From the NCBI RefSeq assembly GCF_964204865.1, contig NC_135263.1, positions 16,864,001 to 16,928,000 on the forward strand: DNA of 64,000 nucleotides. Direction: 5' to 3'. The notes below the pieces were generated by a model. That model saw nothing but the letters and a program-made list of their open reading frames with translations, ran no database searches and was not told the origin of the DNA. The DNA is from Styela clava (lineage: Eukaryota). Positions 4,608-61,651 of the stretch are shown here, piece by piece (the first letter of the stretch is position 1; every line of letters starts with the position of its first letter). The translations under genes were made by a program, and so were the position numbers.

Positions 4608-7600
4608 TTAAATCTGTGGGCTGTTATGTCCATTCATTTTAAGTTCTCTGTCCGAAAAATTTAGGCTTTTGAACCTTTGTCGCTGACTACGTATTGAACC
4701 GTTATCGCCATTCATTTCGTAGCTTAAGATCACTTTGTTTGTTTTTTCCGGGGAAATATTTAAATCAGAATTGACTTTTAATGGCGTAATTTCTCCATTT
4801 TCCGTTTCTAGTTGGGAACTACATGTTGTCGAATTGTAACTTTTCTTCCTACGAAATCGCACAAATGCAATTACTACAATAGTGCATACGAGAGTTGCAA
4901 CAACGAGGGCAGATATTACTGCAACGAGAGCTATTCTCAGTTCATAAACTTGTTTGTGGAGCGCTTTCTCGTTACTTGAAACTGCCTCGACATCAGGCAC
5001 TGTAGCGTCTCCACATCTAGCTCCCTTGTATCCAGGCTTGCATTCACAAAATATTTCTTTTGGAAATCCTCTCACGGCATTGCATTTTGCGCCATGTTGA
5101 CAATAATGGGCAGCAGAGGAAGGACACGGTTCGAAGGCTTCTGATAAAGAGCCAACAGCAAGACGAGTTTTTAGCTGCACCGTTTCTCCTCCAGCGTTTT
5201 TCGCCACGCATGAGTAAATTCCCGAATGCATTCTGTGCGCGTGAAAGACAACAAGATCGCTTGTACCTGATCGTAAGCTTGGGCCTCGTACAAAAACTCC
5301 ATTTGCTGCATAAACTTCACCGCCCTCTTCTTCGATGTCAACGCTGTCTTTCAGCCAACGAATCTCGGTGATACGCGATCTAGATTTTACTCTGCATCTC
5401 AAAAAAGAATTCATTTCTGGAAAAAGCTGGATAACAGGTGGCAAAACATCACTTGATATCGTCATGCTGCAATTATTTTCCGGTAATTCGCACATCATGT
5501 CCCAAAGTTGTTCTCGATGTCCTCGCTTTTTAAGAGAAAGGGGGGCGAGTTTGGCATTAAATAAGTTAGGCTCGCCAGTTTTTTGTAACAGGAGCATGTA
5601 TTTTTCTTTAAATGTAAGTTCGTCAAAACATTCTTTCATATCAGCATTCTTGTTGACATACAAAGCGGCCCCATCTTTCAATCCACCATTATGAATGGTC
5701 CAAGTGTGAGTGACAGTGAATCTAACATAAAAAGATAATCGTGATCAGATATTGCAAATATAGACGCAAGAACCGTTAACGACTGTTTTCTTTGCACGAT
5801 TAAAGAACGTCTCACCACATATTATAAAATTGGTTTCAGCTATTTCTTATAATAGAAAGCCGTCTTATTCAACATTAAAAGATGAGGCACGTTTGCAGTC
5901 ACGCTTGACGACAATTTCAAAATACGTTATTTATGAATATCAAACACATTTATGATATTGGACATGAAAGTTCACTCCTTAGAAAGTATACTTGACATTA
6001 GCATGTATTGAATACAATGTATCGTGAAATTTTAAGAAGAAAAATGTTTTCAGAAAAACGAGATGAAATCTAAGCAATAAAACAATTAGCACTATTTGGG
6101 AGATGGGTCACGGTGCGTCATAAAATTTATAGCGTGTTACACATGTTAGATAATCACCCCGACAGATTGATCATCGAATAACCTCTGATTCATCCTTTGA
6201 TGGGTTCCGTCGATATTTCTATTTCATCTTGTCGTTATCGCAATTTTTATGAATAATTTTTATTTATTTGGCGAGACTTTGCATATAATTTCATTGCTAC
6301 TTGTTGTTGACACCTAGTGAATTTCCCATGGGCTTTCAATTCAATTTCAATCGGATAAAACTTTGAATCTGAATACCAGGAGTATGCCAGGAGTCAATAT
6401 AATTACTAATCAGGGTAGAATATTGTTTCTGAATATAACTCATGTCGATCAAAAATCTTCAATTATCACGATCGTATGTATGTATGCCTTTGTACCCCCT
6501 CCGAGTTGCATCCAATACACCCCCTTCAGTTACCAAGTCATTATGTCAAATAACTTCAAACATTTTGAACCCTAGGTTAGAAGTTCATGACAAACGTATG
6601 ATGATTTTGTCAGACCAAACCAATATAAGGCAACACTTAATATACAATCAGAAAATTAGATATTCCAAAATTCAATTTTGTACCCTATAGGTCGCTTTCG
6701 TTATGTAGAGTAAAATAAAATGCATCGTTATCCTCCTAGCTTGCACAATTTTATTTATCCGGTTTTAAATGAATGTAAATAAATTCTAATTATACCTCAA
6801 ATAGGTATATATTCTTATTTGACGTAATGTGGGAATTAAGTAAATATTAACAGCCGCCAGTCCAAAAAGACGTTGTCATTAAGTTTGATGACATTTTGGA
6901 AACGCGGACATTTCAATAGAGATAACGATCATATTTTATAGATTCGAGATTTGGTTCAAATTACTAGAGTGTTACGTGATTGTACTACTTGAATAAATGC
7001 ACCATCTCTATTTGGGAGTCAGGTAGAGAGAACACCCCCTATATCGCAAACTCGTAAGTTGTACGTCTACACCTTCGTTACACATAATATCCACCAATGT
7101 AAATTCCATGGGCTAGTTTAAATGAAACGACATTGTGTAAGGGATATTTTTGGTAGCTAACGATACTTTCTTATCTTTTATATATTTGTTATGATGCTTG
7201 CCCTATGAGGGCCGAGTTACCGGCGCTTTTATTCATATCGTTTCATATATTTACTTGAATAAAATACTTGATAAATAATAATTTTGAAGATAAAAATTGT
7301 GTAGCAAACGGATAAAACGCGATTTGAAATTAATTATAATTGTAAATGCCCATTGAATTAAATATTATTTTTTTTTGTCATTGAAATCAGGAAACATTCC
7401 TGTGCAGATGAAATCCTAAAGTCTATTTATTTGATTTCTTACCTCACTTGTTAAGTCACACGAAATCACGAATGTGCACAAGCAAATTTTACCTTTAAAG
7501 GACAGAATAATAAAAGTTTAGTAACAATTGCCAATAGTATATTTACCTGAATTTTTCATCGGACATTGATACGTATTTCCCTTCTAAAAGTATATCATCT

Positions 7601-41873: not shown

Positions 41874-43189
41874 CACTATTTCAGCAACGTGGAGTACTTT
41901 CGTTGGGCGACGCGTGAATCGCATTTATTGAAAGGAGTGTGGAATTGAATATATGTAAATAATTGATTATGTTTTTCACTCGTTAAACTTATATGTATGT
42001 AACATATATGTATTCAAAGTGTTCGTGCTCTTGATTTTTTGGAACCTATACCTTCAGAATTTTAACTTGAACAGTTTTTCGATTTAGAAATCGTATCATA
42101 ATATTCTATTATATACATTGAGCAAATATATTAAAACCGTCACGCTCGCTATAAAATCAACGATTGGTATCAAACTAAACGATTTCACGAAAATCAAACA
42201 GAAGATTTACGGAGAGAATAACAACGTAAAATATCTTTTGGAAGTATGGTTTATAGAATTTGAGTATATAAGAAACGATTCGTTGTCAGCTCCGAAACGA
42301 CATAAGAAAACAAACTAGGGTGATTCAAGGGGAGGTGAATGTGCGGTACGGTCCTTCAGAGAGTGTTTCCTTTTTGTATGGAGTATACGAGTGGAAAGCC
42401 ATGACGATTGAAATTGAAGGGCGAGGCACGACCAAACGTTAATAGAGTGGAACCTTTTGTTATAGGCCACTTGAATAGTACGGGAGTGCAGAGAAAAATC
42501 AAAAGCGCCTTAATAATACTAAATCTACAATACAAAAAGAATTGACGCAGCCCAGGTTTTTGAAAGGCAGGGTAAACCCTCTCGTTAAAATCGCTCTCGC
42601 ACACACATGCTATTTGGTTGGTTGTTCGTGGTATTTTCTTTTTGTGTTTGAGTAAAACCGATGTCAAAACACTAGACAGGTAAAAGGAACTTGGAATAGT
42701 TTAAAATAGATTTTCTTTTTCTCAGATTGTAATTCTAGACTAAGACTTCCAGCACTGAGGAGTCGGGTGGCGTTCGCGAATAAATCATTTCAAAAGATTC
42801 GTAAGTATCTTCTTCATATTTTAATTATATTTTTACATTTCAATTAGTATCAATTAAAAACATATTAATTAACATGTTTCAAATGCCTCACACCTAATGT
42901 GGTATTTATCTCTAAACTCGTGTTTTTAGGATTTCCAATTGTAATCTCAAATTTTAGGCATATTTGGTTGCTAAAATATATTTAAACTTCAGATGTATTA
43001 TATATATATATATATGAATTCATGATTTTTAGCGTTTTCATTTTGCCTAGAATAATGCGGCTAATGGCAGAATATATTTCCATCTTTGTGCAATACGCAA
43101 TATATATAACAAAATATTTTATTTCAGAAGTCGGAGCTCAATTTATTCTACAGTTTGAAACTTCACATCTTATAAAATTTTCAACGAAC

Positions 43190-46100
43190 ATGACGACCTT
43201 TCAAGTTCAGGGAATGCCGACACAAGCTCATAACATGATGCTTGTTAATTCTAGATGTGGAAATATTCCACTTCGTCAAGAATATTTTCGTTGTAATTCA
43301 ACGTCTTCTGCGTCAGATAGTCGCAGTGTAAGTAGTGAAGATGAAATTATTAATGTTACAGATGATAATGATGAAGTTTTTCGGGATTCTCCGGTTCCAT
43401 CTATTGAACTTAACAAGACAACTGAAGAGCAAGATAAGGTTAGTAAAGGACAAAACATCACTAGTTTTCTTCATAGTTTGAACGGCGCTCCCGAAGTATG
43501 TGCACCAAGATGGCGCACAACCTGAATCCTAACCTGGGTACACATACTATGTTCTTTTTGTGCGCCATCTTGGTGCACATAATTCTGGAGGTCCGTTTGA
43601 ACTTCTAATTCCCAAAATATACCACATCTTTGTTGGTTAGCAAAACAAAGTTCCTATCAATATAGCGGAATATTGTGTATCGTAAATCCTCGCACTACAA
43701 CTATACTTGTGTTATAGTAAAGCATGGCGTTTAAGCAGGGTTTCTAGTGTTTTTAGACGGGTTTTCACTGTTTTTAAGCGTTTTAGCAGGGTTTGTTTTT
43801 CTTCGACGTCTTTGGTTTTGACTTGATGATTACTGTTATTTATAACTTTGAGCTGCATCATTTATGATTTTAGTATTAAAATACACAACTATTCTGGTCA
43901 CGCTTATGTAAAGAATTGTGAAATAGTTGATAAAGCCATGTCGGTACTCGTCGCTTTGTGAAGAGGTTCTCATATAAATAACAATTGATATCATGCAACT
44001 CTGACCAAATTATGGCACACAATGAAGCAACTTTATCTCGCTAAAACAGCCATACTTTTTCTGATATAAAATGAACGAATTAGCAAAAATGCTGCGCTAT
44101 ATAAAAGACTTATATTGAGGGCTTTATGCTAAAACGACAAAACATGAAAATGCTGCCTTGAGTAAATGAGTAAAAATACAATTTTGGGTTTTAAATTCTT
44201 GTAACTTTTTATTGAAATACTTCGTTAAATATTTTGCTTCAAAGTAGACGCAATTTATTTTTTGATTAGCACTTTCGAAATTTCAACATTCGCCCATTGT
44301 CTTGGAACTCTCGATATATACATCCACTTTGAATATGCATGCCACGCCTGGCAGTGTTTTTTATTATTGTCTAAAATACTATTTTCGGTTACATTTCGTT
44401 TAAAATGAGTGCAATGTTTATGCCAAACCGCTGAGATTGGGAATTGACTGCCATCGAATTTTTGTGGAATTAAAAAAGTAACTCGCGTGACAAGGGGTTT
44501 TTCCATCTTTCCTCGATGAATGACTTCAATATTAGTATAAAGGCGTTGGAGTGTTTGCCACGCAGAAATTGTTTGTGTGAAGATAAAAGGCGTTGTTCAA
44601 TCTTTTCTTTGATATAAATTCTTTAGAATAAATATTAATTAATAACTTCTATACATAATATTACTAAATTCTAAAAATAGTTTGGTTTCACCTTCGTATA
44701 TTTTTTTCTCGCAATAACAGGAAATAAATACAAAAAATCATTGGCTTCTGTGTAATTTTATACGTCAGTATAATTATTGTTCATAATCAACACGGACATG
44801 ATATTAACAAAAATAAAGTATTAAAATGCTACACCCCCATCGCAATAAATTTACCTTGAATATGTATTTATAAACATGTCAATATACTATTATTTTTGGT
44901 CCACTGTTATAGAAACACTGAAATGGTAAAAAATATGTCATTGGAACATTTAAAATTCTTCTCGATAATTTGTTTTATTTCATTATGTAGTTATTGTACC
45001 GTGAAAAGATCAATGTAATGAAATATATTTGTACGCGAGATAATGTGAGATTAAAAAGGCTGTTAGGGAACATGGAATACTCACACTTGACGCTATATTA
45101 TTACACGAAATTTGATACTTTATTTCAATTTAATAAAATTTTATTTTATCCTATTTTTATAATCATAATTGGCCACTCAATTTACCATCGCTATATTTAC
45201 CATAGTAAAGAAAATCTAATTGATAATATTTTCCTATTTTGTGGTTTATCAAAAATTCGAAACTATCTGTTATGTTGGATATGTTGTTTACGTTGAAGCC
45301 GATATGGAAGCGAATAAAAAATCCTTTGAATCGACAATAAAAACAGGGTGTTGTAAGAGACGCCACGTTGCCGTCTGTGTGCGTCACTGCGTCCATGAGG
45401 TCAAAAATTTGCTTCAAGATCAAGGTCGGTTTTATGCGACAAGATGGGAACGGTGTTTGATGTCTCTTACAGCTATTTTCAAAGTAAACATTATTTTATT
45501 GGTGTTTACTATTTTAACTCTGAAGCGTTGAAACTTTAAAACGTTTGAAATATGCACTAGGCAAATTGTAAACATTGAAGGATTTTTGCAACAACGTTGA
45601 ATAGAAACCGTGAAAATCGAGATAATCTAAGCCATTCAACGTAAATTCCGCTTAAAATATGGAACTAAAAAGCTTGTATAATATCGATATCGGAATAACA
45701 AAACTTCCAATTCTCCCAATTTTGATAACGGACTACTTGTAGAATTTAATTTGTGCTGCTATGCGGGGGCGACGCGGAAAGAATACCAGATGGGGTTCAC
45801 GTAATCGCGTGTTATAAATGTGAATGTATATCCCCCAATTTTTTCGCTTATTGCGTAATATATAGTGGTGCGTTATAACCGGGAAAAAATTACCAATATT
45901 AGAGATTTGAAATGTCAATAAAACTCTGACGCTAATTATTGTCACGCGATCTGTTATTCTATTCCTAGACAGTTTGGCGAATAACTGTTTATGTTTATAT
46001 GGAAGGGAACGTCGAAAGATATTTGTCCATGCATTCATAACCATTTCAGTTTACTGATATAATTATTGCCTGGCCAGACGTAGAATTGGCATAATCAAAG

Positions 46101-48788
46101 TTTAAATAGCGTGACTCATCACTATCCCATGCTTTGCTAAGCGTAGAAAAACAACATACCCATGGACGACTGAAGAGAGCCCTTAACAAAAGACGTTACC
46201 TTGACAACGCAAATGGATTCTATTGTCAAGCGTAAAACCGTACGATGAGTTTAAATATTGATTTTTAGAAACGAAAGTATAAAATAAAACCGTGAATCCT
46301 GGTTAACTGATCTCTTTATTTATCATTCTATGTAAGTCAGGATTTAAAAACACAATCAAGTGGGATGACGATCAGTCGAGCAATGATGATAATTCATTCT
46401 TGCGCCATTTTGAAGAAACGTTCAAATTTTTTCACGATTTGAGTAAAACGAAAAACACATTTGAATCGATTGATAGTATCGTCCCCAAAAATTGACATTT
46501 GCATTCTGCAATGAACACATTTTACTTAAAACAAAACAGCAGTCATAAAATCGCGTCAAATTTTTTTTTAAAATATTTTAAACTGAAATAAATAAATCAA
46601 ATGATCTTTCAACCCATAACTTATTCTGTTTTCTTTTTGACTCAAAATGTTTATTAGATGCCTAAATGTTAAATTTATCCCATTTGTTACTTAAAAAAAT
46701 TCATGTTTTTTCAGAACTTGAACGGTGATTTTTACAATGAAGAAAGAAAAAATATTCCAGAGAGTGGAAGTGCGTATCATCGACGGCCAAAACCGCCTTA
46801 TTCTTATATTGCTCTCATTGCAATGGCGATACGTGATTCTCAAACAGGTATACCTTTAAAAAAAGTGATATCACCATACGCTATAGAAAAATATATTTCG
46901 GTAGTAACCTATGGCGGAATAACCAATGGCCTACTTCGGTGTATGTTTCAGTCAATGTTGCAGATTTACACACTCATTCTGAAATTTGTTCAAGACTGAC
47001 CACAATCGATCCACGTGCTATTGATTTTACCAAACGTCTAGCCATATTTTACGTTTTAGGATAAATCACATTCATAGATTTTTCACAATAGATTTTTATA
47101 TGAATTCAACAAAGCTTTTGGTATTGTTTTTTTACTATGTGAAACTCTTTTAGTAAAGACTGATATCGCGTGCGAATGGTCTGTTTTCGTGGTTTTATTT
47201 GGGTATTTATAACTGCAATTAAAGTTTGAACAGTACTCGTGCAAATAATAAAGAATATTCACGATGACAGAATGAATAAACATCGAACCATTCCACGGGT
47301 TGTATTCTTTGAAACTTCTCACGAATCGGAACATAAACGAAATATCTTTTTATGATAAAAAATGCTAATATTTGTGCTGCGGAAATTTATAGAAGTTTTA
47401 GTAATTTGATCAGCAGTGTCAATTACCTTTCGAATCTATGAGGTTACATTCGAACATTATTTATGAAGATGTCAAAATTTCGATCCTTCTCAAATCGTTC
47501 TGAAATTTGGATTAGATGTTTGGATGTTCTCATTGCTAAATTATGCTCAAAATATGAGTACTGTAATTAGTAATGTCGAAGAAATTCAGTTTGATTAAAA
47601 TTCTAAACTGAAGCTATTTGAAAAGACTGATTTCCATGAATTTTGATATTTTACATTTTTTCTATATTACTTGTTTTTTTTTCCAGTAAAGTTAAGATTT
47701 GTGCCTAATCCCTCGTAGTAAAATTTGTGTTATATCATAATTAAAATGGTGAAGGAACAATTTCTGTAATTTTGAAATAACTCGAAGTCAAAGCACCCCA
47801 TGTCAATAACTGAATAATTATTCTCAAAACCGACATGAGCTGATGAGAGGAGGTCGTAGTTCAATATATGAGTAAGCCATCTTATCGACTTTTTTCTTCT
47901 CTAAGATATAAAAATCCGAAATCAAAATAGAAAATTGCATGTAATAATTGTTGCATTAGGATGGTAAATATGAATTACTATGAAAGTAGGAATGAAAAAA
48001 AAAATAAAGATCATATATATATATATATATGTTTAGGAAAACTAACACTGGCAGAAATTAACGACTACCTGATGAAGAAATTCCCTTTCTTCCGTGGAAC
48101 ATACAAAGGATGGCGTAATTCAGTACGACACAACTTGTCATTAAACGAATGCTTTAAGAAAATCTTGCGGGATCCATCACGACCTTGGGGAAAAGATAAT
48201 TACTGGACCATCAACCCGACAAGCGAGTACACATTTGCAGGAGGAGTCTTTCGCAGAAGGAGAAAACGCATTGCACGACGAAGCGGAAGTGGTGGATACT
48301 TGCACCATTCAGATACAGATGAGGTTCAACCACCATGTGTACCAGTAAGCACACAACATCCACTTGCTGTGAGTATGTGTCATGCTTATACAAATGGACA
48401 TCCACAATTTGCTAAAATACCGGAACAGAAAAAAGAAACACAGACGAATAAAGATGATTCATCTAAAAGTTTCACAATTGAGAGCATTCTGAATCGTAAA
48501 TGCACCAAACGCGAAGACATTTCTCCGCCACCCGTAGACTCGAGAATTAACATTAGTTCTTTGCCGTATTATCCTCTTTATTATTTCGCCGAAATGCCTT
48601 TTCTCGCACCGATGACCGCAGAAGGACTCAAGAAATCTCATTGCGTGCCAACGCAACTTTACGGTCAATATAGTCCGGACATCCGAGCACTGCCAAATGC
48701 TTTTGTTCCCAATTACTGGCATCCCATACCGGAACATCCAAAATTATCGCTGCCAACTGTACTCGGAAGCAAGCTTCTGTTGGTATAA
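43190..48788 (+). CDS. FOXQ1: Forkhead box Q1 transcription factor, about 377 aa
   Basis: Exons 43190-43438, 46715-46847 and 48037-48788 (intron phases 0 and 1). Forkhead domain [55 protein letters not shown] carries the FoxQ1-diagnostic RDPSRPWGKDNYW and TFAGGVFRRRRKR. eh1 motif SFTIESIL. Exon 1 assignment is less certain than exons 2-3. Confidence 0.93.
43480..43598. mobile_element. Palindromic MITE family A (short form) in FoxQ1 intron 1
   Basis: Inverted arms TATGTGCACCAAGATGGCGCACAA / TTGTGCGCCATCTTGGTGCACATA. Near-identical to 61652-61767. Confidence 0.85.
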
Positions 48789-50651
48789 ATGGTCTGATGC
48801 TATCATTAAGAGAATTTGTCAATCACAAACGATTACATTTAGACTGTGACTAAAATCATATTAATATTTCGAAACACAAGAATGATAGAATACTTTAGAT
48901 AGAATTCCAAAGCTGATAATGAATAAAAATCTTTGTCCGGTGAGATATCCGGAAATTCTAGTAGAATGAAAATTTGATATCTCGGTCCACGAATCAGTTT
49001 TTGAAAAACGCTTACCCGCACGCGCTTACTCACTAACAATCGGTTCCGTATAAGTTTTTATCTTACACAATCGGAAGATGGGTATTTATATCAAGGATTT
49101 TTGATAAATAAACTTGGCACGGTATACTATATAAGATACCATGCTTTGAATAATACTTGTTTACCTGACGCGGCGTTTTTTAGCGCCGAGCTTTTCATAT
49201 TTTTATTTTTTTTATTAGACTTTCTTTTTTTGAATTATTAAAAATTGTTAATACAAAATCATTACGACATGTAATTAGGCCTGTAATGGCAAAATAAGTT
49301 AATTATAAACACGTTTCATAGTTTTTATTATTCATTGCATATTGACTTTCTGACAAACTGTTAATGAAAATACAGTTAAATTTTATATATATATGTTTTC
49401 TCAATTTTAGTTTTGTATTAGAGATTAAAACACTTTATAGTAATTAAATTGTATAGTTTTCGTGGTATGTAGATATTGTAGAAGTGTAAAACACTGTTTT
49501 AACAAGTTAAATATTGAAAGCCCACTTTTGGAAGTTAACGAACCTTCGTGGTTTGAATGCTGGATAACGTTTTCAGCGAAATGTGTTTCTAAACTGTTTC
49601 ATAGATATTTTGATAAACGTACTTTCAAAACCTATCAAATTTTATTTTTAGTTTTCAAAGTTTTGAAACTTGCCCTTCATTTTTATTCTTGTGGATGTGG
49701 TGTTTAGATTATTTTGACTATTATCATGCTTGCCTGTGATTGTATCTGTTTTAAACTGATATAACATTTTACTTCAGTGGTTGAGCATGATCCGATGATA
49801 AAAATTGCGTTTGGTATTCCTGTTGTAAATTTTTCGCTCTGAATACTCACTAATTTCTATAGATTCTTTCATATATGATTTGTAGACATCCGTATTGGCT
49901 GAATTGTAAATTTCCTATATATCACGTTAGATCTTGTTCAGATAATTTTAGTAATTGACGACGTGCGAGCACAAAATTTGCAAGCATATAGTAGTATTAA
50001 ATCTACAAAATGAGTAATGTAACCTGACTTTTATGGCGAATTAGTTGACAATCGCCTTTTGTGAGCTATTCGACACAGAATGCAGGTTAATCTTCCTTGT
50101 TGTTTGTAGCAACCTAGCCAAAAATATTTTGGTCAACTATGCGTTATAGATAAAACACCTATTCAATGCGTTTTATCAATATCTCATAGCACAAAAAATA
50201 ATTTTGGCAGGCCACGTGTAGGTATTTTTCTATGCAATTTTCCAAGTAACGACTGTGCGCTTCTTGAATTTGCACACATTTTTTTTGCAATCAGCAAATC
50301 ACGCTTAATGTTAACGTAACACAAATCAGAGGCGGGAGCATTTGGATTTTAAACGATGCCCGATTTTGGCAGAAAATAATACATAATATGACTTCGTTTG
50401 GAAATAACTTTCCAGAGGGTTTTAGATATTTTATTTTCAATAAAATTACTTCCTTTCATTGTATTGCAGTCTTTTCAATTTCAACCATATGTATTCGTCA
50501 CAGGTCCGTATCGACTTATCAATACCCACATGGCTTTTACTTTATTGATAGGTTGCTGATTCAATGAAGTCGATCGACAGTTTAGATTTGAGAGAAAATA
50601 GTATTAGCCAAGTACCATCTACCTAGCAATAGATAGAGCTGAAAGTTACGC

Positions 50652-50674: not shown

Positions 50675-51324
50675 CTGGGTCAGATGAAAATAAAAGGTCA
50701 GAGAAATAGTAAGATAGCTAACAAAGCTGAAGTTTTGTGTCATCTGCCTTGAAATATTCAAACAAAATTTCTCATAACAAATTCAAATGTAACTTGCAAT
50801 TTGCGTTCACCTTTATAACTATATTCAGCGATGACACGAGAAGTTTAATTCCTTTCATGACTGAATATTATTATATATATATTTCATGGCCACAAAGTCA
50901 TGATAACAGGAGAAATGAGTAAACATTGTAAGTTGTATTGTAGCCCATGTTAGGGTTTGTATAATAAGCAGCCAGTGATTTCAGTAGCGAAACTATGGCT
51001 GCTGTGTCATATTAATTACCTGATAATATTAACATGAAAGATATATATTATATGAATACTCAAACGTTATTATATAAGTTATACTAGAAGAATACTTGGG
51101 CCTTTTATACTTGAAAAATATCTGAGTAAAATATTAAATGAGTGAACCAAAATATTCCATCATTCAATCTGGCTCAAAAACTCAGTCCGGAGCTCGGTAA
51201 GTCGTATTTATTGCCTTCGAGAGAAGGTGCACTATTGTGTTGCATTTTAAAACTAAATGCAATTTATGCACATATTTTTTTAGAAGTCTGTAAATGAAAG
51301 CCCGTCGTTTGAACTATATTGACA

Positions 51325-52674
51325 ATGCGCTGCTTCAAATGGATATTCGCAATATTGTTTGCAGATAGCTTTTCGAAAATTCACTGCGTAGGAATCAAAT
51401 CAAATATACTTGGCCCTTCTCTGCCAAACAAACCATTTAGTGTTACGTGGGATGTTGCAAGTGAAAAATGCAAAGAAAAATATGGCATTTCGCTTTACCT
51501 GGACCATTTTGGCATTCGGCATAACACTAAAAATGGCTGGAAAGGTAATGTTATATCGATATTTTACGAAAATGACCTTGGTCTCTTTCCACACTTTAAC
51601 GATAGTGGACAACCCATAAATGGAGGTCTTCCACAAGAGGTCCCGTTATTCGCTCATTTGGATAAAGTCATAAAGGACGTTTACAGAGTGTTGCCGGATC
51701 TAGATTTTGAAGGTTTAGCAGTGATTGACTGGAGAAGCTGGCTCCCTCTGTGGGATCAAATATGTTCCAATGATAATATGCATATGCACATCTACAGAGA
51801 CAAATCTATTCAAAAAGTCAAAGCAGAACATCCCGATTGGCAACAATCGAAGATAATTTCTCAGGCTAAATTAGAATATGAATCTGGTGCCAAAACACTC
51901 ATGGAATTTACTCTTACATTGACAAAGAAATTGCGGCCGAAAGCCAAGTGGGGCTTCTATTTATATCCTGATTGTTACAATTATGATAGTGACGGTCACA
52001 AAATTGATTTAAGGTGTACAAATTACACTAAAAATCAAGATGATAACCTCAAATGGCTTTTTAACGAGAGCACAGCGCTCTATCCATCGGCCTACCTGAC
52101 TAAATGGTTTAAACATAACTTGACGGCTTTGTACTTTGTTGCCTACCGTGTACTTGAAGCAGTTCGCGCAGACAGTAACAGACCAGAAGATACAAGCATT
52201 CCAATATTTCTGTATCATTCGGTGGCGTACCCGTATACAAACAAATTTTTGAACCTTTTTGATCTTAGAGACACCATTGGAGTTGCTTCACTATTGGGAG
52301 CTTCTGGCGTCGTCATCTGGGGAGGATATGATATCGCCAATACTGCTGAGGAATGTCAGGACTTAAGCAATTATATTTCATCTATTTTGGGACCTTTTGT
52401 ACAATTGATCTCGGATGCTGCTTCTAAATGCAGTCACGAGCGATGTAATAATCACGGAAGATGTGTATTGTCACATTTTCCTGGATACAAAGATAATCTT
52501 AATGAACGAACCCATCTCGACGTTCAGGAGGTAGCAAAGACGATGTCTACATTAAACGAGGATTTTTTTGAAACATTTGATTTATCACTTCAAAAACCTG
52601 GACGTTATCAACATTATATAGTTTGCCAGTGTTATGAAAAATGGACTGGAAATTTTTGCAATGAAATGCATTAA
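51325..52674 (+). CDS. HYAL: Hyaluronidase-family (GH56) secreted protein, 449 aa, catalytic Glu replaced by Arg
   Basis: Single ORF with a signal peptide. Motifs: NGGLPQ, GLAVIDW, LRPKAKWGFYLYPDCYNY, STALYPSAY, LGASGVVIWG, and a C-terminal HyalEGF-like C..C..HGRC..CQCYEKWTGNFC. No GPI/TM tail. A likely 5'UTR intron spans 51197-51283. Confidence 0.93.
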   Translation: MRCFKWIFAILFADSFSKIHCVGIKSNILGPSLPNKPFSVTWDVASEKCKEKYGISLYLDHFGIRHNTKNGWKGNVISIFYENDLGLFPHFNDSGQPINGGLPQEVPLFAHLDKVIKDVYRVLPDLDFEGLAVIDWRSWLPLWDQICSNDNMHMHIYRDKSIQKVKAEHPDWQQSKIISQAKLEYESGAKTLMEFTLTLTKKLRPKAKWGFYLYPDCYNYDSDGHKIDLRCTNYTKNQDDNLKWLFNESTALYPSAYLTKWFKHNLTALYFVAYRVLEAVRADSNRPEDTSIPIFLYHSVAYPYTNKFLNLFDLRDTIGVASLLGASGVVIWGGYDIANTAEECQDLSNYISSILGPFVQLISDAASKCSHERCNNHGRCVLSHFPGYKDNLNERTHLDVQEVAKTMSTLNEDFFETFDLSLQKPGRYQHYIVCQCYEKWTGNFCNEMH

Positions 52675-54606
52675 ATGTTATTCAAATTCGATATGTGGCA
52701 ATTCAGCGTACTTAATTATTATACGACCTACTTTTCTACCAAATTTCAAAGCTTTAATCAATTGAATGAAACCATTTATACCTCTCTTGTAAAAACTGTT
52801 GGCAAAAGGTACTGCTTATAACACGAATTTCGCAAATTTTCAAAAGAGCATTATTTTACTATTATTTCGACTAGCAGCTCATAGTTTATCTATATATAGA
52901 TATACATATATATATTATATATATTATACCCCTTTTGTCATTGTTTTTGTTTTCAAATAAGGTAATTGACAAGTTGATCCATTCGCATGATCAGTAAGTA
53001 CACATACGCATACTGTGTAAACCAAACGTAGAAAATTGGAAGCCCTATTATAATAAAAAACCCTAACCATACATTTCGTTGTATTGGATTTATTATTGAA
53101 TATTAATAACACAAAAAGACTAAATACAAGATGAATTCAGTTATTTGACCCAAGTTTGTTAATTTTTTAACCAACAACCAGAAACGGATTCAGATGATGA
53201 AGGGTAGCTGGGCTATGGCATTTATGCGACTCTCTAATTATCTAATACATTGTCATCACGAATGCTCTATGATATCTATTATGACGGCATAATATGCCTT
53301 TCGCTGTTACGTCCGACGTCATACTACCCGTTTCTAGTTGTGAGATGAGGGATGAGGCATGAACCATTCAATACCTGATCAATAAAACATTAATAGTAAA
53401 TCAATTAGGCATTCAGTTCTTTTGAACTAAACAGGCCTGTGATAAAATAGTAAAATATATATTTGATACACTTAAAAGAGCTATAGTTTTTCAAATTTGA
53501 ACAAATTCTCATATTTGGCCGCCTTTTTATTTTTTCATATTTTAAACGTAAAATATTTGAGACAATATATATTTAAAAACTTCTCAATGATTTATTGTAA
53601 GTTAATATTGTTTGACACCAAATTGTTTTTTGCTTCATCGAATTTAAAAATTGCGGTTCCACGATCGATAGACCACCGATACTCTAAAAGATTTGATACT
53701 ATAGTTGTGACTCGTATTATCTGGCATTTCGATTCACGTTGAGACTAGACGTACAGAGCCTGGAAAAAAGCGAGGGCAGTCTGGTTACCGGTACCCTGGT
53801 ACAGATACTGTTACGGTAGCTTTTACACAGTTCTAGCTTCGTTCAGGATATGAGTTTCGTTATGGCTTTCGTGTCCATATATTTGAGTATAGCTTTATCG
53901 TTTGAATCGTGCCGGAATTATTCCCCCATTGGCATGGTTTTCTGAGATCAAGATTCTCTTCGTTTCTTGCAAAGTATTCTTTTTGTCGCCTCGAAATTGT
54001 AGGTTCTATAATATGTGTCTCATATATATATATAATATTTACCTCCGAACCTGTAATTATATTAAGCTGAAAATTATTTTCTTTATTACATATAAACCAT
54101 ATTTCTCGGTACTTGAAATTACTAAAAAATGAATATTTTTTCCAAAACGAGGACGGTCGGCTGACTATCCATGTTCGAATGTCGCGATGGACTTATGGAT
54201 AATTTAACTAAATTTCATTGGTGACGTTTTGCAGTCTAACCACAATTAAATTCGTATGGTGTCACTTTGATCAAGGTTTATTGCAAAATATATAATAAAT
54301 GATTCAATTCAGTAGAACATAAAAGGTAAATTTTAAAATTGAACATTTTACTAAGGTACCAATTGTTTGATAGCTTGCTTTTCAACTATACTTCTCAATA
54401 AATTCTCTTTGATGTCACACTAAAGCAAGACGGTTTTATATTTCGAAATACAAGTCTAATCTTCGAGTTATTAATTTCTAATTCATACTTATGATGAAAC
54501 ATCCGTCTATTGTTTTGACAGAACAGAGATGCAGGCGAATTAATCAATTTTTGTTTCGAACTATCAAAAAGAGAATATTTTCACAAGTAAGTCATCTTTG
54601 CTGCAA

Positions 54607-57566
54607 TCAGCAACATTTTTTCGCAGTAGCAGGTGGTTCTAAGCTTGGCTCGTTTAATTTGATTTCTTCGTACTCTGGTTTTCTGATGGGTGGCCTTAGC
54701 TTGTCTTTGTTCTGTTAAAAATGAGTTGAGAGAGTGCACTAGGGACTTCGGCTAGTAACTTGAACATGGAAAGTCATCCGCAATTTATCAGGGTGAACTG
54801 AAGTAAGTTCTGGTTTTCCTATTCATAATTGGCCTGAATTTTAAAGAAATGTTTATACTGTCTTGAAAAAATAAGTAAGATAACATTGATTTTAAAGTCG
54901 TCAAAATTCAAAATAATTTTCAGACTAATGTTGGTATGTATCCACTGGTATATTTGGAACATAATATTTTGATAGACGCACTGAGTCAAACCTTAACTTT
55001 TGCTATAATTATTATTACCGTATTTGCATCATGATTATACAAATCCAAATAGTGTTAGTGACGTTATTGGTCACAGAATAAAATTAGCAATAATTCCGAT
55101 CGCACGCTAAGAGGGTCCAATTGTATATTATTTGTTTATTCGTAAGTAAACTTAGGTGTATCGTACTGTTCTAAAAACAATAGCTACCTCTCGAGAACTG
55201 AAATCTCACCTTTTCAACAATCTTTTCAAGAATATGATGAAATGCTTCGTCTACATTAATGTCGTTTTTTGCACTTGTTTCCATGAATGACATATTGTAT
55301 TCTCGAGCAATCTAAAAAATATATTTCACTTGAATATAAATATAATTTGGATATAGCGTAATTATTTAATTGAATAAATCATATGTAAAGTAGCTTGTGC
55401 ACTTCATGCCTTTTCGTGTTTACCGGTGAAAATCACAAAAAAAAAATGGATGGATGTAACGTTTGTACCTCAACGTTTCAGACTTCATAGGCATTCAGTA
55501 ACAAATGGAGTTTGAGAAAAATTCAAAACCACTTACATTTTCCCCATCTCTCTTGGTAACTTGCCGAAGATCTTCTTGGTCACATTTATTTCCCAAAATC
55601 ATGCATTCTGTCTCATCTCCAGCCCACTAAAACAGAAAGAATTGAAAAATTAAATATCAAAAGAATTAAATATACTATAAGCATAGAAGGCTAATTTTTA
55701 TGCTGACTGCAATAATGAAGAAAAGTATGCATAAAAAATTAGATTAGAATAACTAAAGATTTGTACCAACCATTCGTATATTTTTCACCCACATATTTAC
55801 GCGCTCAAATGATTTTGTATCTGTGATGTCATAAACGATACAAATTCCCTTAGCCCCTCGATAATAGGCAGTTGTTATTGATCGGAATTTTTCTTGTCCA
55901 GCCGTGTCCCTTAAAATATGATAATTTTATAAAGACATAACGTGTATTAAAAAAGGATTTACACTTCACACATTTTTATAATTTTTTTAATGACTACTAT
56001 TCAGTTTTACGTTTTTTTTCAAGTTCACTTTTTGCTATTGGTCCATAAGGTGTAGGGTTAATTAAAACCCTATCTCTCCAAGTTTCCTGAGGCCATTTTG
56101 TATGATTTTTTCCGAATTTTTTATTATCGTCAATCTTTAGGCCCTAAAACGGCAACCAAAAACCATTATCATAGCTAAAATAGTTACCGTAAAATTCACA
56201 ATTGTATTTACAGAATTTACCAATTCAACATCTTCACTTGAGAGATTTCATGACGTCACGCCCTAATTATTACTGCATAAAAGCTTCGAAAAACAGCGAA
56301 TGTAATAATTGTCGACCATTAAATCGTAAACAACCCAACGCCATGACAGCGACAATGACGAAGGCTTTTACGTTCAACTCTTATTTACAATTTTACCACC
56401 CCACCATGTATGGTAGAGGGTAGTCACGTTTTTGAAAACATTACGGTGCGAAATATGAAATGGATTACTAAAAAAACATGCTAAGTCATTATAAGTGATT
56501 TGTCGGCTGTCATTCTTATCTGGGTTATAAACAATTCTTACCAGCTTTTCAGAGCACTGACTCAACACATCGTTAACATCCCGGCAAGAGCTGGTTTTAA
56601 AATCTCATTTTGAAAAATATGTGTTTTTAATTAAGGCAAGACCTGTTTCACCAATAGGCAAGGCCTAGAAATTCTAACTTGAACTGCAATTCATTTTTAT
56701 TCCGTTTTTAAATTTTAAAGCTGTGTTCCAAAATTGAACCTGTATAACATTATTTAAATATGAATTTTGTTTCATTTTTAGTCAAGGAGGTTGTTTTTGT
56801 TCCAAATATTCCCAATTAAAGTATAAAAAAATGAATACAGCCTTGAGCTTCTTAATATTGTTTTTTGAATTCAGCTTGTTATATACTAGCGTGATTAGCA
56901 AACATATCTTACCTGTAATTGAAATTTTTGGAATTTCGACAAATTTTTATAAAAAAGATTGCTTATGGAGCCAAAACATTGATTGCATGACAGTAACAAT
57001 TTAATTTCTATTCAATTTATGGGTCAAATTTCGACATTTTTTCTTTTGTATACACTTACCATATTTGGAGTTTGATCAAGTGTTCGCCTATCTCTGCCAT
57101 TTTCATTTTGAAATCAATTCCTAAAAAATGAAATGTCAAATTATTAGTTTCTACAAATAAGGCACTTGTTTATTGGATTGAGTTGTCATGCTGCTTAGCA
57201 TAAGATATTCTTTATAAGACGGTATATTTAATGAACCATGTGAACATAGCGTTTTTACTATGGTGTTGTGAATTTTGTCTATAACTCACCCGAATCGTAC
57301 GCTTTTTGTTTTATATCAGCAGCAGAAATCCAGGTTGGGAATCTATAGGTTAATCGTCTATATATCCTTTATAATTAAAAATACTACATTATTTATGCCT
57401 GAATTTTGGCTTTGAAATCTGAATACCTACCGATAGTGGCTACAAAGCTGGGAGAAAAGGCGTTTTCCGTATATCTCCGTAAAATACACGTCTTCCCGAC
57501 TCCTGCATCCCCAATCAATACAATCTTGCACTGCCAATCAGGTCTTCTCATTGTAGTTTCCGTCAT
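54607..57566 (-). CDS. Rab GTPase of the Rab8/10/13 group, divergent Rab10-like, 210 aa
   Basis: Exons 57566-57431, 57120-57060, 55909-55771, 55626-55537, 55311-55210, 54711-54607. G motifs [31 protein letters not shown]. RabF motif YYRGA. C-terminal KKCC prenylation signal. Confidence 0.93.
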
Positions 57567-58547
57567 TTCCAACTTATCTCTAGTCAAATTACAGCGAGCG
57601 ACCCATCACTGCATTAAAATTATGCTAAACCTCTAGTGTAAAACTTTTAAGGCTTGTATTAAACGCGTGATATGATTGCAGGTACATACTGATGTTTGCC
57701 ATGCCTATTTAAATACCTAACAACCGAGTTACCATTCGTTCACGCCGATAGCGACTTGTCAACTGAGGGCGTTGGACTTATCTCAAGTCGGAAAGCCCCA
57801 AGCTCCCAAAATTTTGTTGATTTTCAGTTTGGGTTATTCGGTACAGTTTGGATGTGTACTAGTCACATTTATACCTTTCTAATACGATTATTTAGCAATG
57901 AAACACAGCCCAAAAGCTTACAACGCCAAATATCTAATTGCTCCCTTTCATACAGACCGAAAAAACGATCCAACAAGCTAATAAAAAACATCTGAACCGC
58001 GTTGAAATACTGTTAAACGAGGCTTCTTTTCAAAATTCTGGTATTGTATGTAGCCTATCCTATAAAGAAGGAATTCGATAGCAGCATTTTAAATTCATCA
58101 ATACAAATGTTGACTTTGTTAGTTAATACTCAACAACGATAGGGAACAATGGCACCACTGGTTTACGTATAACGGTACGCTTTTACATACGTGTATCAAT
58201 AAGCACGTGCCATTTGTTTGCGTAATTGTAACTGTCACGCGAATATTCGGTTGCAAATTGGTGCGACATAATTGTTGTTGATTTTTTAACTTATTGCCAG
58301 CATAGTTGCAAACGTTGTGCGCCTGTAATAACGGTGTTTACCAAGCTGGCAAGAGCATGCAAGAGGGTTCCGTATAGAATGACAACATCCTAGATTACAG
58401 CGATGAATGGGCTTATTGTGTGATCCATCATGCTAATCATCCTTTATTCTCTCAGCACAAAAATAACGTTTATATCTTTACACTGAAGCAATTTTATATA
58501 TTTAAGGCACGAATATGTGATGGAATTTGCAATTAAATAGCGTGAAG

Positions 58548-58733
58548 CAGGGGTGTGCCACCTTTAATACAGGAGGGCCAGATACAAATAACTGGGTGGA
58601 ACCGCGGGCCGAAGCTTCATTCAACATAGGCTTTCCAGTAGTAGCAACAACAACAGTAACAGCAACTTGATTATTGATCTCATGACAATTTTTCTTTGTG
58701 GGCCGCATTTGGCCCACAGGTTGCACACCCCTG
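58548..58733 (-). mobile_element. hAT MITE family C, internally deleted, inverted relative to the 38.8 kb copy
   Basis: TIR CAGGGGTGTGC / GCACACCCCTG with GGCCCGCGG and GGCCC subterminal motifs. TSD is degenerate. Confidence 0.8.
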
Positions 58734-59180
58734 TGTAAAGAATATTTTAATAGAAATATAATCATTATTTGGAGAACCTCAGTGACACTGTTGGACTGGT
58801 TGAATGTTTTATTAGATGAAAATATTTACTAAAGTAAGCTCCATGAGTCAACGAATGAATTGTAATAGATCCGAGACCCGAAAAGCCAGGCTACTACGAA
58901 AGAAACGATCATATATATAGCAATTAGCAATGTCTCTGATATAGACGTACAAAATTTTGTTTGAGCTTCCGCCTTTCAATATATATTTCCAGTCAGAGCC
59001 CAATATTAAGAAATATTAATATTTCTTATAAATATTAAGATATTAAGCCCAATATTAAGAAAAAGTGTAGCTTCCGACGACATCTTCAAATAAGAACTAG
59101 CCCTTCCATTGGAATGGGTCTCTCCTTTACTTGTCACTCATATGCCATCCACATACCGAGGCACAAATAATGCTATCAGT

Positions 59181-61320
59181 TTATAATATAGTGTATGCAT
59201 TTGCGCGTTTTCGTCTGTAGTTCGGCTCAACCATAGCTACAGACACCAGTGAAATACAAAGAAAAAATATTGTTGCTACGCCGGCGACAGCGACGCTGTA
59301 ATATTCCATCACGGTCCTTAAAATGGTTGTTAACACGAACATGCTCAAGTTTCCAAGCGATGAGTTGATTGACATCATTAAAATCTTGCTAGTAGGATAC
59401 GTAGTTTCTATTAGAAGTTCATAAACTGCAGGAATGAAAATTCCTCGTCCCATCATAAGCAAGACGTACAAAAAGTACATCATGTTTAGCAGCTCGAGTG
59501 CATGCGCAAAACACAGTCCAACAGTCGAAAATATTGAAATCAAGGTACCTGGCATGAACGAAAATATAAATATAAAAGAATATAGAAAATTGAACGTGAA
59601 AGATACATGATTTTTAACGAATTGTAGCAAGTTACCATTGCCCGGACATATGGACAGATATAACCGACCAACATGGTAGCGCAAGTTGTCAAGCAAGCAA
59701 AAGTAAAAAATTTGAGACGAGTAAACGTAATAGGTTTCTAGGAGATACTTCCATCTGAAATTGCTAATTGGAAGAAAAAACGAAAGAAAACTTGAAAGCG
59801 ATTGGTGCAGAATGGAAGTGGAAGACAGAATCTTCTTCTGTCCAATAAAAACATTTCTTTCAAATGGCGTGGCATTAAATTTGTGTCCAAATTTTATGTT
59901 CATATGATATTACAAAACAGTATTAACAATCATACCTGTCAATGCAGTACATTTGAAATTCGTAAACTTGTCAACGATACGTCCTGTAACGAATGTTGCT
60001 GCAACAGTTGCCACTGTTCGCAAAAAAGCAATGTTACCAGCTGTTATATTGTCTAATTTGGGAAACGTTTCCAGCAAGCACGAAGGCATCAGTGTGACAC
60101 CAAAGCATACAGCGCCTTCGCTAAACATTGTTCCTAATGTAATTAGCATGACTGGTTTCATCAATGCAATTCTACACATTTCAATAAGTCGGCTTCCTGA
60201 TGACTGTTTCGGTTCCATCATCTTTTTCTCTTGTGAACGGCTAGGAGGTGTTGGTGGACGATTTTCGAAAAACAGAATTGATAACAGCAAGCAGACAATC
60301 ATTATCAAAAATATCGCCCCGAATGTAGCGCTGTACAAAACACGTGCTTGGTGAAACGTTGAAATGTCGAATGATGAATTGTGTGTTGAGTTTGCAGGAT
60401 TATTGTTTGGAATTACATTAGGAAATAACAATGCTGATGTAATTGATGCAATGCTGAACATTGTTATTGGTAATACAAAAGCCGTTGCAGTTTGATTCGG
60501 TGGAAACCAGTTTGCTGCCAAAAGAACTTGAGCTATATATAAAATGCCAGCTGTCGACGTCATAAAAATCCGACCAATTTCCGTAACGTAAAATAGGTCT
60601 CTGAAAACAAGGGGTTGAATGAGTTCAAAAAGGGTAGTGTGTACCAGGTTAGGGTTAGTCCATAATTTTATTACGATTTTCCTTATTTTAATTCTATTAG
60701 TTCGAAGACTGTCTGTGTTAGCCAAGGGAATTTACCCCCTACTCATATGTTGCAATACCTTAATACAACTTTATATAATATTTGAAATAGAAATAAAGGC
60801 TCCACTCGACACTCGAGTGTATTACAAGAAGTTTAAGATTCTAATATAATATAGAATTTTCAATGTATATATCAGGTGTTGTTTGACAGTTAAAAGAGAT
60901 ACTTAGCGATATTTTTTTAGCAGAAAGCAATGGAATTGCTAAAGTTATAAACAGCAATATTTATTTCTCTAATTTTTTCGCAACCGAAATTATCAATTCA
61001 TTTTTCAAAAAGCCATATTACCTTGATTGAAATCCAATAAGACAGATCACACTTCCACACAAAAGACATGATATCATGGTAATCACCAGCGACCTCAAAG
61101 ATAATGATTGACTGAAGTATCCCACCAATAACGTCACGGGGAATGCAATAAAATTCCCAATGATGACAAGCAAGTCAATCTCATACGGCGTGGCGCCATA
61201 GAAATCTTCAACTACTTTGTGTAAAACCACAAATCCTGTACTAGCATAATTCTTCACAAAAGCAATTGCGCAAAGTATTCCGAGTAGAATCCATCTTCGT
61301 GCATACCTAACGTAATCCAT
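59181..61320 (-). CDS. MFS transporter, SLC49 (FLVCR/MFSD7/DIRC2) family, about 443 aa
   Basis: Exons 61320-61022, 60600-59936, 59548-59181 (intron phases 2 and 1). Family motifs YARRWILL, AANWFP, RPPTPPS and ELLIETTYP, plus many hydrophobic helices. Confidence 0.85.
60634..60745. repeat. Family A MITE fragment in MFS intron 1
   Basis: GTGTACCAGGTTAGGGTTAGTCCATAATTTTATT..TTCTATTA matches the interior of the 2187-2421 element. Confidence 0.6.
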
Positions 61321-61651
61321 TGCAATACATCAGTAGAATGGCAGAATATTGTTTAAGGCACAGCAACATTAAGAAGATACAAATATGGTTTAATCAATCA
61401 CAGTCAAATATACGCGACTAACAGGAAATGGCGCAAAAAGCGTACGAGGAAGTTATTATAAATCGATAACACATACACACATGCATGTAAGGCCTGGCTA
61501 CAAGACAATATTAAATATTTCAGCCATGTACAGCTGTGTATTTAGCCTGTGAATGCTTGCTACCAACTCATTTACGAGTGTTCTGTTTTTCACCAAATCC
61601 TCTAGTTTTGTGACAATACCATGCTTTGAGCTAAATTGTATGAAAAAAAAT

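What the first reader, a model, noticed from the sequence alone, without database searches (positions are those of the whole stretch)
51325..52674. Intact hyaluronidase-family gene with a disabled, remodelled active site: candidate glycosaminoglycan-binding pseudoenzyme
Seen: the motif reads GLAVID-W-R-S-W-L-P (codon AGA at 51733-51735, R137; L140), followed by WDQICSNDNMHMHIY. Established: GH56 enzymes have D-W-E-x-W-R-P, where the Glu (HYAL1 E131, bee-venom E113) is the essential proton donor, usually followed by an N-W-x-x-K-x-x-Y loop. Here Glu is Arg, Arg is Leu, the loop Trp is missing, and an extra Cys and an MHMH stretch appear. The Asp, the positioning Tyr residues (WGFY, LYPSAY), the Trp (VVIW), the signal peptide, the EGF-like cysteines and the full 449-aa frame are all kept. 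Inference: the protein may be a secreted non-catalytic binder of anionic glycans (chondroitin/dermatan sulfate or tunic polysaccharide), with a positive charge placed in the cleft.
Basis: partly seen in the sequence, partly recalled or inferred. Interest (0 to 1): 0.75.

Follow-up and report, generated by a model that had tools for sequence, protein, structure and literature searches.

The report
Dead, decaying sea-squirt hyaluronidase copy
This sea-squirt hyaluronidase gene really has arginine in place of its catalytic glutamate and is transcribed, but it collects damaging variants as fast as silent ones, so it is likely an old, catalytically dead duplicate now decaying rather than a working glycan-binding protein.

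Summary
ORF 51325-52674 encodes a 449-aa GH56 protein whose catalytic Glu is Arg137 (AGA). A second Styela clava assembly and RNA and DNA contigs show the same codon, so it is no consensus error, and the gene is transcribed. The fold and the positioning residues (D135, Y212, Y257, W332) are kept, and only 5 of 87 strongly conserved columns differ on a long branch, so it was long constrained. Present-day variation looks unconstrained: 10 non-synonymous to 3 synonymous SNPs (pN/pS about 0.85); 17 catalytic-domain differences between two assemblies against 1 in the intact paralog; variants at near-invariant columns (A181T, G319E, G378E); and a 47-nt frameshift form in one RNA run. Glu-less GH56 proteins are recurrent (10 of 157 domains; known inactive wasp isoforms). 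Verdict: likely a dead duplicate now decaying, probably after a non-catalytic phase (0.62); a still-working glycan binder remains possible (0.28). No close ortholog from another species was found, and that is the decisive missing test.

The parts
51325..52674 (+). Single-exon coding sequence, 449 aa, GH56 hyaluronidase-like protein (P0001)
   Evidence: NCBI holds this exact protein
51325..51393 (+). Putative signal peptide (residues 1 to about 23), short hydrophobic core
   Evidence: hydropathy only; inferred
51418..52419 (+). GH56 catalytic-type barrel domain, residues 32-365
   Evidence: PF01630 E 1.2e-107; model pLDDT 88.4, best fold match HYAL1 2pe4 E 8e-40
51727..51729 (+). D135, equivalent of HYAL1 Asp129, kept
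   Evidence: D in 137 of 138 homologs
51733..51735 (+). R137 (AGA) in place of the catalytic Glu; two base changes from the GAA of both paralogs
51754..51792 (+). Remodelled loop, residues 144-156: 3-4 residues longer than in homologs, extra unpaired Cys147, MHMH from a 6-nt tandem duplication, Trp lost
   Evidence: modelled as helix 143-146 and 149-168
51958..51960 (+). Y212, equivalent of HYAL1 Tyr202, kept
52093..52095 (+). Y257, equivalent of HYAL1 Tyr247, kept
52231..52236 (+). P303-Y304, replacing the basic pair found in tunicate-clade enzymes
52318..52320 (+). W332, equivalent of HYAL1 Trp321, kept
52429..52659 (+). C-terminal EGF-like region, six Cys (369, 374, 380, 434, 436, 445)
52428..52474 (+). 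47 nt skipped in the only contig laid from run X5; frameshift, product ends at residue 374 without the EGF-like Cys
   Evidence: not seen in X6, X7, X8 contigs that span it; not shown in DNA
51865..51865 (+). Variant A181T at a column that is Ala in 138 of 138 homologs; in run X6 and in P0002
52280..52280 (+). Variant G319E at a column that is Gly in 137 of 138 homologs; in run X5
51282..51296 (+). Putative splice acceptor (AG ending 51283) followed by an out-of-frame upstream ATG at 51294
   Evidence: sequence; use not shown
51297..53058 (.). Extent covered by RNA contigs
   Evidence: contigs do not show strand or ends

Best explanation
This is an old duplicate of the sea-squirt GH56 hyaluronidase/chondroitinase gene that has lost its proton-donor Glu, is therefore predicted to be unable to cut glycosaminoglycans, and is likely under little or no selection today, a transcribed gene on its way to becoming a pseudogene. 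Shown: the Glu-to-Arg change, the open frame, transcription, an intact paralog (L002) and near-neutral variation. Inferred: after duplication the gene was held by purifying selection for most of its branch; the active-site loop and the Glu changed while the frame was still kept open, so a phase as a folded, secreted, non-catalytic protein probably came first (about 60% within this reading); constraint then lapsed recently, with L002 likely supplying the enzyme activity.
For: Glu131 of HYAL1 is the catalytic residue, and mutation of it or of the positioning residues abolishes or lowers activity (PMC13080975, passage; PMC11315327, passages). 13 coding SNPs in runs X5, X6, X9, X16: 10 non-synonymous, 3 synonymous, on 1074 N and 273 S sites, pN/pS about 0.85; P(10 or more of 13) is 0.0004 at omega 0.1 and 0.017 at 0.2, and neutrality fits (p 0.73). 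Between the window's genome and RefSeq proteins of another assembly the GH56 domain differs at 17 of 332 residues against 1 of 330 for L002 (Fisher p 1e-4); 13.7 are expected with no selection at the species' 1.72% heterozygosity (PMC7540406, passage). Variants hit near-invariant columns (A181T, G319E, G378E). One RNA run shows a frameshifting 47-nt loss, and RefSeq flags P0002 'LOW QUALITY PROTEIN'. Long earlier constraint: stem 0.84 changes per site, only 5 of 87 columns conserved at 90% or more differ, omega = 1 on the branch rejected (lnL -3471.2 against -3454.5). An unconstrained frame would stay open with P about 0.04 at 0.02 changes per base under an assumed indel rate.
Against: The SNP sample is small: omega 0.3 (p 0.083) and 0.5 (p 0.31) are not rejected, and polymorphism always holds slightly harmful variants. 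The neighbour-gene control (3 N: 6 S) comes from a cut table (40 rows shown, 119 not) and gives only p 0.079. The 47-nt loss is in one contig of one run, has 2-nt microhomology and AT..AC ends and is not shown in DNA, so it could be a library artefact. G378E and other differences seen only in P0002 could be assembly errors; two of the 17 come from where the loop gap is placed. Paralog L003, which keeps its Glu, is almost as variable (10 of 329; p 0.24 against this gene), so high variation is not peculiar to the Glu-less copy. No stop or frameshift is fixed, all positioning residues and ten structural Cys are kept, and the gene is still transcribed.
Confidence: 0.62

Rival explanations
1. It is a working, secreted non-catalytic glycan binder (GH56 pseudoenzyme): the kept Asp, Tyr and Trp still hold an N-acetylhexosamine, Arg137 contacts a uronate or sulfate, and it shields chondroitin or dermatan sulfate from the active paralog, as heparanase-2 does for heparan sulfate. 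Selection on it is weak or diversifying, so damaged alleles are tolerated.
For: Fold and positioning residues kept; Glu-to-Arg needs two base changes and the loop took in-frame insertions only, which fits change under selection for the frame; transcribed in runs of two studies; precedents: inactive wasp isoforms, heparanase-2.
Against: pN/pS about 0.85, variants at invariant structural Ala and Gly, a frameshift form; the basic pair at 303-304 and Tyr271 of tunicate enzymes are lost; no ortholog with the same change in any search; binding untested.
Confidence: 0.28
2. It is still an enzyme with changed chemistry: Asp135 or a His or Asp of the new loop replaces Glu as the acid, giving weak hydrolase or transglycosylase activity.
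For: Asp135 and all positioning residues are kept; the loop brings D150, H153, H155.
Against: Glu is the proton donor across GH56; wasp isoforms with changed catalytic acids are inactive; near-neutral variation; loop geometry could not be read from the model.
Confidence: 0.06
3. AGA is an assembly or consensus error for GAA.
For: AGA and GAA differ by a swap of two neighbouring letters.
Against: Same residue in P0002 from another assembly and no other letter at 51733-51735 in contigs of X5, X6, X9.
Confidence: 0.01

Closest known systems
Human HYAL1 (PDB 2pe4) and PH-20 (9jub), glycoside hydrolase family 56
   Same: Fold, domain order, Cys pattern, Asp129/Tyr202/Tyr247/Trp321 equivalents.
   Different: Glu131 equivalent is Arg; loop after it is 13 residues with an extra Cys; coding sequence in one exon.
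Inactive wasp venom hyaluronidase isoforms Ves v 2.0201 (Ves v 2b) and VesT2b
   Same: GH56 proteins with a changed active site and no activity (PMC11598713, passage; PMC5075168, passages).
   Different: These are abundant proteins (Ves v 2.0201 seems the dominant isoform) with counterparts in several wasp species; VesT2b has Asn for both acids. Here Asp is kept, Glu is Arg, no ortholog was found and variation looks neutral.
Heparanase-2 (HPSE2)
   Same: Model for a catalytically dead glycosaminoglycan hydrolase homolog that binds its substrate and inhibits the active paralog (PMC10368643, passages).
   Different: Different family; its loss causes disease, whereas this gene shows signs of tolerated damage; binding here untested.
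Human HYALP1 (HYAL6P)
   Same: Transcribed GH56 family member lost in one lineage (PMC3581078, passage).
   Different: HYALP1 has fixed stop codons; here the frame is open in the window's genome and damage still segregates.
Styela clava paralogs L002 (hyaluronidase-1-like) and L003 (hyaluronidase-2-like)
   Same: Same genome, same clade, single-exon coding sequence.
   Different: Both keep Asp and Glu; L002 is tightly constrained, L003 is itself divergent and variable.

Membership tests
GH56 hyaluronidase family (by descent) | PF01630 match above the curated cut-off | tested here: met
   360 bits against 23.2, residues 32-365
GH56 hyaluronidase family (by descent) | Hyaluronidase barrel fold with C-terminal EGF-like Cys | tested here: met
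   AlphaFold2 pLDDT 88.4, pTM 0.88; Foldseek 2pe4 E 8e-40, TM 0.78/0.84; Cys positions
Active GH56 enzyme | Catalytic Glu in D-x-E | tested here: not met
   Arg137
Active GH56 enzyme | Positioning Asp, Tyr, Tyr, Trp | tested here: met
   D135, Y212, Y257, W332 (residue list from PMC13080975)
Active GH56 enzyme | Hydrolysis of HA or chondroitin | not testable with these tools
   needs an assay
Functional pseudoenzyme (Ves v 2b, HPSE2 type) | Catalytic residue lost, fold kept | tested here: met
Functional pseudoenzyme (Ves v 2b, HPSE2 type) | Transcribed | tested here: met
   covered in runs shown to be RNA by spliced contigs of neighbouring genes
Functional pseudoenzyme (Ves v 2b, HPSE2 type) | Present purifying selection | tested here: not met
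   omega up to 0.2 rejected, neutrality fits; omega 0.3-0.5 not excluded
Functional pseudoenzyme (Ves v 2b, HPSE2 type) | Same loss shared by orthologs in other species | tested here: inconclusive
   no relative between 50% and 94% identity; none in metagenome scans; genomes of other Styela species not searchable here
Functional pseudoenzyme (Ves v 2b, HPSE2 type) | Protein made and binds a glycan | not testable with these tools
   needs proteomics and binding assays
Pseudogene (HYALP1 type) | Fixed stop or frameshift | tested here: not met
   frame open in the window and in contigs of X6, X7, X8 where covered
Pseudogene (HYALP1 type) | Neutral variation, null alleles segregating | tested here: inconclusive
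   pN/pS about 0.85 on 13 SNPs; frameshift form in 1 of 4 RNA runs that span the place, not shown in DNA

The most novel reading that the evidence does not exclude
A tunicate GH56 lectin: a hyaluronidase turned into a secreted dermatan/chondroitin-sulfate binder, with Arg at the acid position and a new Cys-His-His loop for metal binding or covalent anchoring in the tunic, kept for a long time and now either variable under weak or diversifying selection or caught while being lost.
Probability: 0.25. Interest if true: 0.55.

Novelty: new member of a known kind. Interest (0 to 1): 0.27.

Why it matters
Modestly. If the best reading holds it is a clear case of an enzyme duplicate that lost catalysis and is now decaying, and a warning that an open, transcribed, well-folding frame does not show function; its 'hyaluronidase-like' label should read non-catalytic. 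If the rival holds, it would be a GH56-derived glycosaminoglycan binder in a chordate group where Ciona lacks hyaluronan synthase (PMC3581078), and a possible probe for sulfated glycans.

Tried and rejected
Consensus error: rejected. R140L and the missing loop Trp as signs of inactivation: rejected, both vary in Glu-keeping relatives. Branch dN/dS against the paralogs: synonymous sites saturated, values at the bound, useful only to reject omega = 1 over the long branch. Search for a close ortholog: two word-index searches (best 120 of 477 and of 485 listed), the 50%-representative search (best 150 of 1443), two metagenome scans (0 of 51 stretches; 2 of 63, vertebrate-type genes with Glu): none found. 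Old-assembly twins of other window genes as controls: exact sequences not in the collection. No holder was on record as RNA; RNA status was shown instead by spliced contigs. Earlier findings of the scan: three look-ups, nothing. The primary HYAL1 mutagenesis paper was not held. No paper on Styela GH56 appeared; 'hyaluron' has 0 hits in the main text of the S. clava genome paper, whose supplements were not looked at. Cleft geometry and surface charge could not be read from the model. No complex prediction was sent, as no binding partner is claimed.

Full report
What is there. The window holds an open frame at 51325-52674 (+), 449 aa, a GH56 hyaluronidase by Pfam (E 1.2e-107), by sequence against solved structures (HYAL1 2pe4, E 7e-83) and by fold (AlphaFold2 on a 55-sequence alignment, pLDDT 88.4; Foldseek best 2pe4, E 8e-40). 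Its nearest record is a RefSeq Styela clava protein, P0002, 94% identical and flagged 'LOW QUALITY PROTEIN'; paralog L002 is identical to another RefSeq S. clava protein, so the organism is S. clava. The genome has three GH56 genes, on C18 (this one), C5 (L002, 51%) and C14 (L003, 42%). Neighbours are a forkhead gene and an MFS transporter.

The observation. R137 is AGA at 51733-51735 and aligns with the catalytic Glu. P0002 has the same motif; contigs of X5, X6 and X9 span the codon with no other letter listed. Glu is at this column in 133 of 138 homologs of 350-560 aa (longer and shorter hits were left out of that count). D135, Y81, Y212, Y257, R275, E278 and W332 are kept; Asp129, Tyr202, Tyr247 and Trp321 are the positioning residues of HYAL1, and mutation of them or of Glu131 abolishes or lowers activity (PMC13080975, one passage; proton-donor role also in PMC11315327 and PMC12254123, passages). 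The loop between W143 and Y157 has 13 residues (12 in P0002) against 9-10 in 138 of 138 homologs, none of which has a Cys there. The MHMH is a 6-nt tandem duplication. L140 and the lost loop Trp occur in Glu-keeping relatives too.

Expression. Runs X6, X7, X8 and X10 are RNA, because their contigs join across GT..AG introns of neighbouring genes; X6, X7 and X8 cover most of the frame, X10 (another study) parts of it, and X5 covers 51297-52882. Contigs show neither strand nor level. An out-of-frame ATG lies at 51294, after a likely acceptor at 51283; L002 has none in that place. Whether it dampens translation is untested.

History. In a 34-protein tree the gene falls in a well-supported clade with L002, L003 and four unnamed Logan proteins; its stem is 0.84 changes per site, against 0.42 for L002 and 1.31 for L003. 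Synonymous sites are saturated between paralogs; omega = 1 on this branch is rejected. Only 5 of 87 columns conserved at 90% or more differ (Y88F, I119V, E137R, W148S, N239D), against 2 for L002 and 16 for L003. So any fully unconstrained phase before the present alleles arose was short, at most about 0.035-0.05 changes per base. In so short a time a double change in the Glu codon (GAA in both paralogs), a rebuilt loop and in-frame insertions without a fixed stop or frameshift are unlikely (indel rate assumed). This favours, but does not show, a phase as a folded non-catalytic protein. A single two-base mutation at the start of decay cannot be excluded.

The present. 13 coding SNPs were listed for X5, X6, X9 and X16: 10 non-synonymous and 3 synonymous, pN/pS about 0.85 without a transition correction. 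Omega 0.1 and 0.2 are rejected (p 0.0004, 0.017); 0.3, 0.5 and 1 are not. The listed SNPs of the MFS and forkhead genes give 3 N: 6 S (p 0.079; table cut at 40 rows with 119 not shown). Against RefSeq proteins of another assembly the GH56 domain differs at 17 of 332 residues, L002 at 1 of 330 (p 1e-4) and L003 at 10 of 329 (p 0.24); whole proteins 25 of 448, 10 of 444, 16 of 424. With 1.72% heterozygosity (PMC7540406, passage) no selection predicts 13.7 in the domain. A181T (Ala in 138 of 138) is in X6 and in P0002; G319E (Gly in 137 of 138) in X5; G378E (Gly in 135 of 138) in P0002 alone. The only contig laid from X5 skips 52428-52474, a frameshift that ends the product at residue 374; X6, X7 and X8 span the place unbroken, and it is not shown in DNA. 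Each item has a weakness, told under evidence against; together they point to weak or no constraint now.

The charge argument. R137 is gained, but Arg303 (7 of 7 other tunicate-clade proteins checked; Lys in L003), the mostly basic 304 and Tyr271 are lost. That these positions line the cleft is recalled from HYAL1 and was not measured. Ciona has no hyaluronan synthase, and its GH56 genes may be chondroitinases (PMC3581078, passages), so any ligand would more likely be chondroitin or dermatan sulfate.

Comparison with what is known. Glu-less GH56 proteins recur. Among the best 150 representatives, 10 of 157 domains that cover the site lack Glu (P, A, V, G, M, K, Q, H; one looks like a misalignment; none Arg). 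Rabbit and hare proteins have Gly, a hedgehog PH-20-like protein Gln. Inactive wasp isoforms are in print (PMC11598713, PMC5075168, passages), and heparanase-2 is a model of a dead hydrolase that binds its glycan (PMC10368643, passages). Searches for a paper on this gene found none (listings only).

Verdict. A true GH56 family member, predicted inactive, transcribed, long constrained, likely decaying now (0.62); a working glycan binder is the main rival (0.28). New member of a known kind; interest 0.27. An ortholog from another Styela species and population variants would decide.

Noticed in passing
L003 (G000:C14:14958604-14959866, -): The third GH56 gene keeps Asp and Glu but differs at 16 of 87 strongly conserved columns, has Cys for the invariant Trp between them in this genome (Trp in P0139) and is almost as variable between assemblies as the focal gene; it may be relaxed too.
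   Followed up: partly
P0085, P0134, P0135, P0136, P0138: Rabbit and hare proteins named hyaluronidase-4 (-like) have Gly in place of the catalytic Glu in full-length frames in both genera: a better candidate for a conserved GH56 pseudoenzyme.
   Followed up: partly
P0158, P0231, P0295, P0243, P0257, P0302: Further unnamed GH56 representatives lack the Glu; P0158 has two domains, both with Pro at that place; P0231 and P0295 share Ala and have also lost the Asp.
   Followed up: no
window 43484-43600 and 60637-60704: A short interspersed repeat inside introns of the forkhead and MFS genes draws very many RNA contigs (summed depth in the thousands); probably a small mobile element.
   Followed up: no
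window 43022-49962 (+): Spliced forkhead gene (PF00250), joints 43436/46713 and exon 48042-49962.
   Followed up: no
window 54251-57600 (-): A spliced, transcribed gene with CT..AC joints at 55908/57059 and 57119/57430 and no long ORF in the list; not identified.
   Followed up: no
window 58698-61339 (-): MFS transporter in three exons, 446 open codons after splicing; used as control.
   Followed up: partly
window 4608-5639 (-): 343-aa ORF with an Ig domain, followed by what look like an EGF-like Cys stretch and a transmembrane segment; resembles a neuregulin (recalled, not tested).
   Followed up: no
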